NCBI GenBank assembly: GCA_951406725.2
Contig: OX597830.1
Location: 15,066,001 to 15,130,000 of the forward strand
Direction: 5' to 3'
From: Octopus vulgaris
Taxonomy: Eukaryota
Length of the DNA: 64,000 nt
Shown one piece after another: positions 21,401 through 25,618 of the stretch. The position numbers and the translations under genes are program-made. Numbering within the stretch: the first letter of the stretch is position 1; each line of letters begins with the position of its first letter. The notes under the pieces are model-generated. The model was not told the origin of the DNA, made no database searches, and was given only the letters and a program-made list of their open reading frames with translations.

Positions 21401-21437
21401 TATATACATACGTGTATGTACATACTTACATCTATAC

Positions 21438-21485
<48 letters not shown>

Positions 21486-21549
21486 GTGTGTATATATATA
21501 TAATATATATATATACTTTATTTCAAAGCAGCAGAAAATTCAACAAAAC

Positions 21550-21587
21550 CTGTTACTCTGAGTTTCCCGTTGCCGTTCATCGGACAG
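21550..21587 (-). ncRNA. Minimal type I hammerhead ribozyme motif, inverted copy
   Basis: Reverse complement: CUGU CCGAUGA ACG-GCAA-CGG GAAA CUCAGAG UA ACAG. Confidence 0.6.
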
Positions 21588-21956
21588 TTTTTTCTCTTTG
21601 TTCCCTCCTCCTTTCATCTGAGTCCCATCCTCTCCTCTCTTCATCTGATACCTACTTCCTCTTTCACCCTACCTACCTTCTCTCTTCATTGATACTCCTC
21701 TCCATCCACACACCATACCCGCACATCTCACTCCCATATACTCACTCCTAGTTAGGAGAAGAAAGAAAGATGGCCGACGGTCACGTAACTTGTGTTTCTT
21801 TCTCTCTGTTGTAGCTGTCCGATGAACGGCAACGGGAAACTCAGAGTAACAGCTTTTGTTGAATTTTCTGCTGCTTTAAATAAAATCATATTACTCTACC
21901 ACTGGTATTTGAGTACTCTATTTTCCACCTTGTTTCACATGTATGTGTTTACTCCG

Positions 21957-21960
<4 letters not shown>
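21588..21960 (+). mobile_element. Inverted Penelope pseudo-LTR / 3' tail copy
   Basis: 21591-21817 is the reverse complement of 22096-22316, directly downstream of the GIY-YIG region; continues into a hammerhead motif and AATAAA. Confidence 0.85.
21813..21854 (+). ncRNA. Minimal type I hammerhead ribozyme motif in the Penelope pseudo-LTR
   Basis: Stem I AGCUGU/ACAGCU, core CCGAUGA (variant of CUGAUGA), stem II with GCAA loop, GAAA, near-palindromic stem III ACUC-A-GAGU, GUA cleavage triplet ending at 21848. Confidence 0.7.
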
Positions 21961-22017
<57 letters not shown>

Positions 22018-22039
22018 TATGTGCGCATAGGACGTCACG

Positions 22040-23668
22040 AAACGTAAATTAAGCTTGGACGACAGGAGACAGACACGAACACGTCATCCTTGTTCCAGCT
22101 ACAACGGAGAGAAAGAAACACAAGTTACGTGACCGTCGGCCATCTTCTCCTAACTAGGAGTGAGTATATGGGAGTGAGATGTCCGGGTATGGTGTGTGGA
22201 TGGAGAGGAGTATCAATGAAGAGAGAAGGTAGGTAGGGTGAAAGAGGAAGTAGGTATCAGATGAAGAGAGGAGAGGATGGGACTCAGATGAAAGGAGGAG
22301 GGGAACAAAGAGAAAAGATTAAATCCTGTTCTTCGGCGAAGGCGAGATTCCGGGTGGCCGCTGTGCAAAGACAATCCGAACACAGACAGGTGTTGTAGTG
22401 AATGACCAGTAGAGCGGAAATGGCGCGAAACCGCGGTGTCATTACCGAGTCTGATGTCTCAGGTGTGCTCCGCGAACCGGTCAGCCAAACAGTGTCCTGT
22501 TTGATCGATGTACAGAGACGGGCAGAAAGAACAGGAGATGCAGTAAATAACGTTGCTAGAAAGTGCAAGTAAAGTAGTCGGTGATATGATAGGGACGATG
22601 ATAGGTGCCTGTGAGGATGGTTGTGTTGGTGAGGTAGGGGCAGGTGCGGCAGAGTGAACTGGAGCAGCGGTACGAGCCAGGTTGAAACGTGGGGTTAGTG
22701 AAGAAACTGTGAACCAGAAAATCACGCAGGTTGTGGGCTCGTTTGAAGGAGCAAAGGAGTAGGTTGGGAAAGATGCGTGAAGTGGAGGCGTTGGACTGCA
22801 GTCGCCGGAAGGCTCGGAGAATGGTGCGTTGGAGGAGCAGAGTGGAGGTGTGGTAGGTGGGGGGGAAACGGGAGAAGGGCATCGCTGGGGTGTGGTGGGA
22901 AAGAGAGCAGAAGCACGGACCACGGAACGTGTTCTGGCGAGGATTGTGTGGATAGTGGTAGGGGATATCCACGAAGATGAAGTGGTGAGCCATGAGTTAA
23001 GACTGAGTCATGGTTGTCACTGCAGAGCCTGGGTAGACGGAGGAATCAGGAGCAGGGAATGGAGAGCTTGGTGTGGATAGAGTGAGAGGAGAAGTTAAGA
23101 TAAGAGTGTGAGTCGGTGTGTTTGTAGTGGATGGAGGTAGTGAGATGCGAAGTGTCGAGAGATGCGACGGAAGTGTTGGAAATAGTGCAGGAGAATTCGA
23201 GGGCAGGATGGAAGGATTGGACAAAGGAGAGAAAGGAGTGTAGTTGTTCGCGGGAGAGTGAGGTCGCACCGATACAGTCATCAATATAACGATCGTATAG
23301 TTCGGGAGTGGGACCAGTGAACCTTGAGAATATTTGGACCGCAACGTAGCCAACGAACAGTTTCGCATAGTTGGGACCCATTCTCGTTCCCATAGCCACT
23401 CCCGAGTGCTGTTGGTAAAAATCCCCCGCGAACGTGAAGCAGCAGAGGGAGAGAACAAGCTCGGCCAGACGAAGAAGTGTGGAGATGCCCGGCTGAGGGT
23501 TGGGTCGAAAGTCTAGGAAGTATTTGAGTGCAAGAAGCCCTTCCTTGTGTAGGATCACTGTACATCAAGAGCAAAGAGAAGTTTAGAGTGGTCAGGAGGG
23601 AAGAAGAAAGAGTTGAAGAATCGGAGAGCACGGTTAGTGTCGTGGATGTGGGGCGGGAATGGAACATA
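22040..23668 (-). mobile_element. Penelope-like retroelement (RT + GIY-YIG), 5'-truncated and frameshifted
   Basis: RT: FYQQHSGVAMGTRMGP...RYIDD...FHPALEF; linker SFKRAHNLRDFLV, CSSSLCRTC; endonuclease NVIYCISC...LYIDQTG...RFAEH. Confidence 0.93.
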
Positions 23669-25363: not shown

Positions 25364-25618
25364 ATATAATGGTTGTATACTGTCAATCTAACAAGAACGT
25401 GACAGTAGGGGGTACACCACCGTTATATAGCCCTAGGAGGCATCGAACGCCTTCTGACAGCTTCGACACATTTTATCCTGTGTCCTTCGTATGTGTATAT
25501 AAGGACACAGGATAAAATGTGTCGAAGCTGTCAGGAGGCGTTCGATGCCTCCTAGGGACTATATAACGGTGGTGTACCCCCTACTGTCACGTTCTTGTTA
25601 GATTGACAGTATACAACC

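What the first reader, a model, noticed from the sequence alone, without database searches (positions are those of the whole stretch)
21517..22316. Penelope end folded back twice, with hammerhead motifs on both strands
Seen: two overlapping inverted repeats. 21591-21817 pairs with 22096-22316 (about 220 bp), and 21517-21587 pairs with 21815-21884 (about 70 bp, one mismatch and one indel). The 70-bp arm consists of a minimal type I hammerhead plus its downstream flank, so there is one motif per strand. The coding-strand copy of the tail departs from the inverted copy at GTAGCTG, just before the catalytic core, so two breakpoints fall at the 5' edge of the ribozyme. Established: Penelope-like elements carry minimal hammerheads in pseudo-LTRs and often have inverted tails. 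Inference: ribozyme structure marks where reverse transcription folds back or switches template. The core is a CCGAUGA variant and stem II opens with an A-G mismatch, so this copy may be inactive.
Basis: partly seen in the sequence, partly recalled or inferred. Interest (0 to 1): 0.7.

Follow-up and report, generated by a model that had tools for sequence, protein, structure and literature searches.

The report
Penelope insertion patched with neighbouring DNA
The two overlapping mirror repeats are real but come from two sources: a small two-armed insertion of a common young jumping gene, and a 227-base copy of the DNA next door lying between its arms, likely copied in while the insertion site was being repaired rather than by folding back at the ribozyme.

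Summary
Both inverted repeats are real. The 70-bp pair is the standard two-arm insertion of a young Hydra-clade Penelope family ('B', 4,327 exact short-end matches) in (TA)n. The ORF at 22165-23570 belongs to another, older Penelope family with its own hammerhead. The 220-bp pair is a 227-bp copy of the right flank, spanning a junction of two older repeats, joined to the arms by 3-nt microhomologies; the flank is its best match (95% against 83% or less). A sister locus shows the same. Family breakpoints are strongly non-random, but sit 9-14 nt upstream of the ribozyme core stem (31 of 67 left, 18 of 57 right arms), not at the cut site (1 each); most likely the transcript's 5' end. The predicted stem II (CGU) is not the consensus (3 of 73; CGA 48 of 73). 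No read bridged the junction. Inverted arms, opposite-strand hammerheads and templated patches are in print; this scan noted flank-copied Penelope junctions before in other genomes (e1-9593129, e1-9170185) and two-arm insertions in this one.

The parts
21420..21515 (.). Left (TA)n-rich target tract
   Evidence: sequence
21516..21592 (-). Short arm of family B (Hydra-clade Penelope pLTR): from the fixed short end (+37 from the hammerhead cut site) back to about -39 (to -42 if the rare A variant at -40)
21550..21587 (-). Hammerhead-like motif of the short arm (4-bp stem I, CCGAUGA, 2-bp stem II with GCAA loop, GAAA, palindromic stem III); predicted cut between 21554 and 21553
   Evidence: sequence; activity untested
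21590..21817 (+). Flank-templated patch, 227-228 bp, inverted copy of 22096-22316; microhomology TTT (21590-92; up to 6 nt) on the left and CTG (21815-17) on the right
21815..21957 (+). Long arm of family B: from -34 through the hammerhead to the fixed long end, including the ~70-nt one-sided 'tail' 21886-21957
21815..21852 (+). Hammerhead-like motif of the long arm; predicted cut after 21848
   Evidence: sequence; activity untested
21960..22015 (.). Right (TA)n target tract
   Evidence: sequence
22043..22165 (.). Fragment of a third repeat (family C): 22043-22127 plus an inverted piece about 22128-22165
22096..22316 (-). Source of the patch: 3' UTR of family A joined to family C
22165..23570 (-). 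Old, frameshifted 3' part of a family A Penelope-like element (RT YIDD motif, CX4CxxC linker, GIY-YIG-like YIDQTG, 3' UTR); Neptune-like by motif
   Evidence: translations; other copies 74-83% identical; no Pfam hit

Best explanation
This is a two-armed insertion of a young Hydra-clade Penelope element in a (TA)n tract, with a 227-bp inverted copy of the right flank between the arms, likely made while the two cDNA ends were being joined. Shown: arm structure, two fixed outer ends (+37 and about +108), local origin of the patch, microhomologies at both joins, and a family-wide cluster of inner ends at -43..-48. Inferred: the endonuclease cuts both strands; each 3' end primes reverse transcription at one of two internal sites on uncleaved RNA; both cDNAs run towards the RNA 5' end, likely a start site at about -47 (60%; a stall at the hairpin just upstream is the rival); the two cDNA ends, which are not complementary, are then joined by microhomology. 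Here the long-arm cDNA most likely snapped back onto its own resected flank strand via CTG at 22096-98, copied about 221 nt, and annealed to the short arm via TTT. I favour a host end-joining polymerase (Pol theta type, about 55%) over a template jump by the element's RT (about 30%). The hammerheads are passengers inside both arms; their cleavage does not set the breakpoints.
For: Family: 4,327 exact matches to the short-end junction, control 0; full units with RWK, DKT, YRDD, CxCX5C, CxxC, CxH motifs fitting the Hydra description (PMC8557442 section 11). Two primings, not self-copy: in 7 of 64 two-arm loci the right arm starts downstream of +37, so the arms do not overlap at all. Arms share subfamily variants in 33 of 33, 41 of 42 and 48 of 50 loci at three sites. 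Junctions: 25 of 61 with >=2-nt microhomology, 10 one-nt, 10 blunt, 16 with 1-20-nt inserts. Inner ends: 31 of 67 short left arms and 18 of 57 right arms in -43..-48 (expected 5.0 and 2.2 if uniform), only 1 each in -49..-60 and 1 each at the cut site +-3. Patch: flank is the best of 40 scored hits (95% vs <=83%); the patch crosses the A/C junction, which none of 28 A loci or 14 C loci shows; B's natural upstream sequence is different. Second case L015: 97-100-nt insert, 92% to its left flank about 150-240 bp from the arm end vs <=82% elsewhere among 40 scored, in direct orientation, with GT and ATTC/CCATTC microhomology. Direct (intermolecular) and inverse (hairpin-primed) templated inserts are the two Pol theta classes (PMC7165422 passages). 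Uncleaved RNA as substrate, both strands extended, two internal start sites: PMC11167929 (parts 1-2 of 4).
Against: No read or contig seen across the junctions. The patch is far longer (227 bp) than the 3-30 bp given for Pol theta inserts (PMC7165422 abstract) and starts 138 bp from the arm end, against within 15 bp for L1 templated insertions (10.1101/2024.08.27.596794 passage). Genome searches scored only 40 of 2,952 and 40 of 1,214 candidates. The start-site reading has no RNA data; a clearly non-templated C after -47 (cap signature) was seen by eye in only 3 of 28 loci, the rest are ambiguous, and C (258) is not much above T (203). The self-complementary CTAG at -44..-41 inflates the peak (8 left, 9 right ends at -44). 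This locus's own arms stop short of the peak (-34 and about -39). Uniform expectation is a crude null.
Confidence: 0.78

Rival explanations
1. One reading: one Penelope element's end folded back twice, with the ribozyme fold marking where reverse transcription turns or switches.
For: Both joins of the patch lie within 0-8 nt of the 5' edge of stem I; family ends cluster just upstream of the motif; a predicted extended helix I reaches -45; right-arm starts are mildly enriched at the stem I edge (7 of 57, p 0.015). Self-priming was proposed for PLE palindromes (PMC3846280 passage).
Against: Arms and ORF/tail belong to different families; 7 of 64 loci have non-overlapping arms; no excess at the cut site; left arms show no excess at the stem I edge (6 of 67 vs 5.9). 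An RT moving 3' to 5' has already unpaired helix I when it reaches its 5' strand (inference).
Confidence: 0.08
2. Same two-arm insertion, but the cluster of inner ends is an RT stall at the base of the RNA hairpin just upstream (-72..-44), not a transcript start.
For: Hairpin of 12 bp, z -3.4 and -3.0 in two copies, -2.1 in a third (mononucleotide shuffles); its 3' base is at -44/-41, the modal end.
Against: Ends reach -47 and then stop (1 of 67 and 1 of 57 in -49..-60); 21 opposite-strand pairs among the first 100 AATT rows are perfect palindromes closing at -47 (counted by eye); 2,047 arms read straight through; the hairpin is weakest in the commonest subfamily; -47 is the A of a YYANWYY initiator-like word (consensus recalled).
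Confidence: 0.3
3. The patch was copied by the element's own RT jumping onto flanking DNA or a nascent local RNA, not by a host repair polymerase.
For: Length of 227 bp and about 100 bp (L015) exceeds typical Pol theta tracts; L1 ORF2p-linked templated DNA insertions are reported (PMC11702581 passage; 10.1101/2024.08.27.596794 passage).
Against: Both cases fit one rule, copying the unresected flank strand (inverse here, direct in L015), as in PMC7165422; two cases cannot separate the enzymes.
Confidence: 0.3
4. Mis-assembly or a later, unrelated local duplication that landed between the arms.
For: No bridging contig listed; microsatellite-rich region.
Against: Patch and source differ at 4 places with apparent derived states on both sides: the patch keeps the long AAAG run usual in family C but lacks a C that contigs of three runs have at 21602; a contig of run X2 carries the long form without gaps over 21675-21813; the patch sits exactly at the arm junction with microhomology on both sides, as does L015.
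Confidence: 0.1

Closest known systems
Hydra clade of C-terminal EN+ Penelope-like elements (PMC8557442, section 11 and passages)
   Same: RWK, DKT, CxCX5C, CxxC and CxH motifs, (TA)n targets, pLTR hammerhead, inverted 5'-truncated copy, one-sided tail
   Different: Unit about 3.36 kb (paper: generally <3 kb); tail about 70 nt (paper: 30-40 bp for PLEs); arm-end mapping and flank-templated patches were not in the passages I read
PAc/Poseidon of Anolis (PMC11167929, parts 1-2 of 4)
   Same: Two internal RT start sites bounding the tail, both strands cut and extended, AT-rich target, ribozyme cleavage not needed
   Different: Different clade; ATG lies about 176 nt downstream of the cut site here, inside the ribozyme in PAc; joining of the arms not addressed in the parts read
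Minimal type I hammerheads of metazoan PLEs (PMC4209133, parts 1-2 of 4)
   Same: pLTR location, palindromic short helix III, pairs on opposite strands 100-700 bp apart already reported, low activity expected
   Different: Helix II of only 2 firm pairs and no G10.1-C11.1 pair; U4C core variant in the window's subfamily
Templated insertions of Pol theta end joining (PMC7165422, abstract, introduction start and passages) and of L1 (10.1101/2024.08.27.596794, PMC11702581, passages)
   Same: Copy of flanking DNA, direct or inverse, bounded by microhomology at a break or insertion junction
   Different: 227 bp and 138 bp from the arm end here, against 3-30 bp (Pol theta) or <250 bp within 15 bp (L1)
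Host-DNA spacers captured next to pLTRs in Adineta Pen1 (PMC3846280, passages)
   Same: Foreign DNA between PLE parts; inverted pLTR with tail
   Different: Those spacers are 0.9-1.5 kb and were not traced to the flank in the passage read

Membership tests
Hydra-clade PLE (family B) | Single ORF, RT with C-terminal GIY-YIG-type EN | tested here: met
   727-codon open frame in L240 with YRDD at 360 and YTG core near the C-terminus; Pfam gave no hit, so by motif only
Hydra-clade PLE (family B) | RWK and DKT motifs | tested here: met
   RWK at 53, DKT at 129
Hydra-clade PLE (family B) | CxCX5C linker; CxxC and CxH around conserved E and N | tested here: met
   578, 683, 711 in L240; second C of the linker reads F in L206, L207, L241, L242
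Hydra-clade PLE (family B) | (TA)n target, pLTR, tandem/inverted arrangement with one-sided tail | tested here: met
Hydra-clade PLE (family B) | Placement in the Hydra clade by RT phylogeny | not tested
   no reference PLE set was fetched
Minimal type I hammerhead | Core CUGANGA, GAAA, UH | tested here: inconclusive
   U at position 4 in 59 of 80 left arms, C in 21; the window's copies have C, so not met in this copy
Minimal type I hammerhead | Helix II closed by G10.1-C11.1 | tested here: not met
   A.A in 64, A.G in 17, A-U in 6, A.C in 2 of 89 left arms; 2-bp helix II
Minimal type I hammerhead | Helix I and palindromic helix III allowing a dimer | tested here: met
   4-bp helix I with predicted extension to -45; helix III self-duplex -9.4 kcal/mol; prediction only
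Minimal type I hammerhead | Covariation of stems | tested here: inconclusive
   family too young; no compensatory pair seen in base counts
Minimal type I hammerhead | Self-cleavage | not testable with these tools
   no excess of arm ends at the cut site (1 of 67, 1 of 57)
Neptune-type PLE (family A) | CX2-5CxxC linker and CCHH EN C-terminal to RT | tested here: inconclusive
   CSSSLCRTC, CISCSFC and two later His across broken frames; no phylogeny, no Pfam hit
Pol theta-type templated insertion | Identity to flank, microhomology at both ends | tested here: met
Pol theta-type templated insertion | Length 3-30 bp, close to the break | tested here: not met
   227 bp, 138 bp from the arm end; so filed as 'works like', not as a member
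Non-LTR retrozyme | Non-coding tandem repeat units each with a hammerhead | tested here: not met
   B is the pLTR of a protein-coding 3.36-kb unit

The most novel reading that the evidence does not exclude
Hydra-clade Penelope elements shed thousands of tiny hairpin insertions by copying, from both ends of one break, an uncleaved ribozyme-bearing RNA up to its capped 5' end, which closes an extended helix I; and the element's own telomerase-like RT can jump onto flanking DNA and copy more than 200 nt, making about 1 in 100 insertions a local duplication.
Probability: 0.25. Interest if true: 0.6.

Novelty: new variant of a known kind. Interest (0 to 1): 0.36.

Why it matters
How Penelope-like elements form their inverted ends is an open question (PMC8557442 passage). 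This family gives thousands of young, base-exact junctions: two fixed priming sites, a sharp inner boundary upstream of the ribozyme, none at the cut site, and occasional flank copies showing the join is made on the spot. That makes the twin-priming-plus-end-joining model testable and argues that the hammerhead does not set the breakpoints. The single locus is one readable scar of a known kind, and the scan has seen such scars before.

Tried and rejected
Rfam scan, no hammerhead hit at E<=5; all 145 matches below gathering score, mostly microsatellite noise. Pfam on four A frames and on the B ORF: no hits. The repeat finder over 10 kb was swamped by microsatellites. Sequencing runs: no RNA holder listed; all runs were contigs, so no start site could be read; two lays showed no listed piece across the junctions, which proves nothing either way. 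First 30 loci were chosen by likeness to the window's motif, so they were not used for breakpoint counts. Long gaps in L092 and L181 are B-internal sequence, those in L111 and L160 look like later insertions of another pLTR in (TA)n; these four and L200 (same junction sequence as L199) were dropped from the junction count. Ends of 32 long left arms were not mapped reliably (700-nt cap, subfamily drift). Cap-G test by pattern counts was inconclusive. Idea that the arms come from different templates, raised by discordance in the biased set, was rejected by concordance in the unbiased set. Sequence look-up in earlier findings gave nothing. Literature searches run; I did not find PLE flank-templated patches in the passages read, but did not search exhaustively; supplements were not opened and may show such cases.

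Full report
Observation. Both inverted repeats are in the sequence at the stated places. 21590-21817 differs from the reverse complement of 22096-22316 by 2 substitutions, a 1-nt and an 8-nt indel. 21517-21587 differs from the reverse complement of 21815-21884 by one mismatch and one 1-nt indel. A hammerhead-like motif lies on each strand with the predicted cut after 21848 on the plus strand. Rfam does not score it. The genome is 2.8 Gb in 227 contigs. Positions written +n or -n count from the predicted cut site.

Three repeats meet here. Family B: 21815-21957 has 93-97% identical relatives (40 of 624 candidates scored). An exact 24-letter pattern for (TA)n plus the short end matches 4,327 times, control 0. 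Typical copies read (TA)n, inverted arm from +37, junction, direct arm through the hammerhead and a 70-nt tail, (TA)n. Long copies lead to a 3.36-kb unit with a 727-codon open frame carrying RWK, DKT, YRDD, CxCX5C, CxxC and CxH, the features given for the Hydra clade (PMC8557442 section 11). Family A: the broken RT and GIY-YIG-like frames at 22284-23570 and their 3' UTR; other copies are 74-83% identical, and 12 of 28 loci show a different hammerhead downstream (a 13th motif hit is spurious). The B protein has no tblastn hit in the window. Family C: 22043-22165. The hammerheads therefore do not belong to the ORF beside them.

The spacer is a copy of the flank. B's natural sequence upstream of the motif is unlike the spacer. 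The spacer's best match is the neighbouring 22096-22316 (95% with gaps; next 83% or less, 40 of 2,952 scored). It runs across the A/C junction, not seen in 28 A loci or 14 C loci. Both joins show microhomology: TTT (up to 6 nt with a rare variant) and CTG. L015 is a second case: about 100 bp between the arms, 92% to its left flank and 82% or less elsewhere. Frequency is low: 0 of 61 junctions in the unbiased set had an insert over 20 nt (five loci dropped as listed), 1 of 59 two-arm loci in the other sets (some loci counted twice).

Breakpoints across the family. I took the first 100 listed short-end places on one contig, dropped one duplicate, and mapped arm ends against three natural long copies. 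Of 67 left arms ending between -60 and +19, 31 end at -43..-48, 6 at the stem I edge, 1 at the cut site, 1 at -49..-60; 32 more run further. Of 57 short right arms, the counts are 18, 7, 1 and 1. In 7 of 64 loci the arms do not overlap, so one is not a copy of the other. Arms agree at subfamily sites in 33 of 33, 41 of 42 and 48 of 50 loci. Genome-wide, 2,987 arms match up to -47; 2,047 read on exactly to -52, 258 continue with C and 203 with T, neither of which is the natural base; 21 pairs among the first 100 T rows are palindromes closing at -47. Position -47 is the A of an initiator-like word (recalled consensus), lies near the base of a predicted extended helix I, and 3 nt inside an upstream hairpin. 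A Penelope promoter with initiator in the pLTR is described for D. virilis (PMC2377424 passages). I put 60% on a transcript start, 30% on a hairpin stall. A cap-derived extra base was clear in only 3 of 28 loci.

The ribozyme. Among 73 left arms with the whole motif, 48 read CUGAUGA with ACG-GCAA-CGA, 9 read the window's CCGAUGA with ACG-GCAA-CGG, and 3 read the predicted ACG-GCAA-CGU (5 end in CGU). Helix II has two firm pairs and lacks the G10.1-C11.1 pair reported as highly conserved (PMC4209133). Helix III is palindromic and could form only in a dimer. In a transcript through this locus the two arms pair with each other in the predicted fold, which would mask both motifs. Activity is untested and likely low.

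Mechanism. Established for another PLE: both strands are cut and extended, RT starts at two internal sites that bound the tail, and ribozyme cleavage is not needed (PMC11167929). Inferred here: two cDNAs converge from the two sides of a (TA)n break, run to the RNA 5' end or stop short, and are joined by end joining (25 of 61 junctions with 2 nt or more of microhomology). At this locus the long-arm cDNA, an extension of the minus strand, most simply folded back on its own flank strand, copied about 221 nt and then annealed to the short arm. In L015 the same arm would have copied the other flank's free strand, giving a direct copy. These are the two classes described for Pol theta (PMC7165422), though far longer here; an RT jump remains open. 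So one of the two 'folds' may be a real snap-back, but on host DNA.

Against. No contig seen across the junctions; limited scoring in genome searches; two cases only; no RNA data.

Novelty. Inverted arms and tails (PMC8557442, PMC3846280 passages), opposite-strand hammerhead pairs (PMC4209133) and templated insertions at L1 sites are in print. Earlier notes of this scan report two-arm Penelope-type insertions in this genome and flank-copied junctions in other genomes; I had reached the reading before opening them, and took two paper leads from them. What is added is a Hydra-clade case, a long patch, and a mapped inner boundary that excludes the cut site. Papers seen: PMC11167929 and PMC4209133 parts 1-2 of 4; 10.64898/2026.07.22.740005 part 1 of 5; PMC8557442 passages and section 11; PMC3846280, PMC2377424, PMC11702581, 10.1101/2024.08.27.596794 passages; PMC7165422 abstract, start of introduction and passages. 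No supplements were read. Verdict: real, explained, modest interest (0.36).

Noticed in passing
window 25431-25558: Near-perfect hairpin with arms of about 57 bp and a 13-nt (TA)-like loop; origin not examined.
   Followed up: no
window 22043-22165; L122-L135: Family C fragment is itself rearranged: one piece inverted against the family order; L123 turns at a CACGTG palindrome. May be another two-arm PLE insertion.
   Followed up: partly
L240 (G000:C1:64214400-64222300): Both arms of one B insertion each hold a whole 3.36-kb unit, 99.8% alike, one ending at the short and one at the long site; one arm has an uninterrupted 727-codon frame, so the family is very young.
   Followed up: partly
L015:1393-1490: Second flank-templated patch, direct orientation, about 100 bp, source at 1069-1165.
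   Followed up: yes
L111, L160: Short hammerhead-bearing pLTRs of another family sit in the internal (TA)n tract of B arms: nested PLE insertions.
   Followed up: partly
L178, L216/L217, L237: Junctions with short pieces recopied from the arms themselves, suggesting repeated rounds of annealing and synthesis.
   Followed up: no
L033-L060: Family A hammerhead has a UUGAAGA first box in place of CUGANGA in most of 12 loci.
   Followed up: no
L199, L200: Two B insertions 60 kb apart with the same junction sequence; possible local duplication.
   Followed up: no
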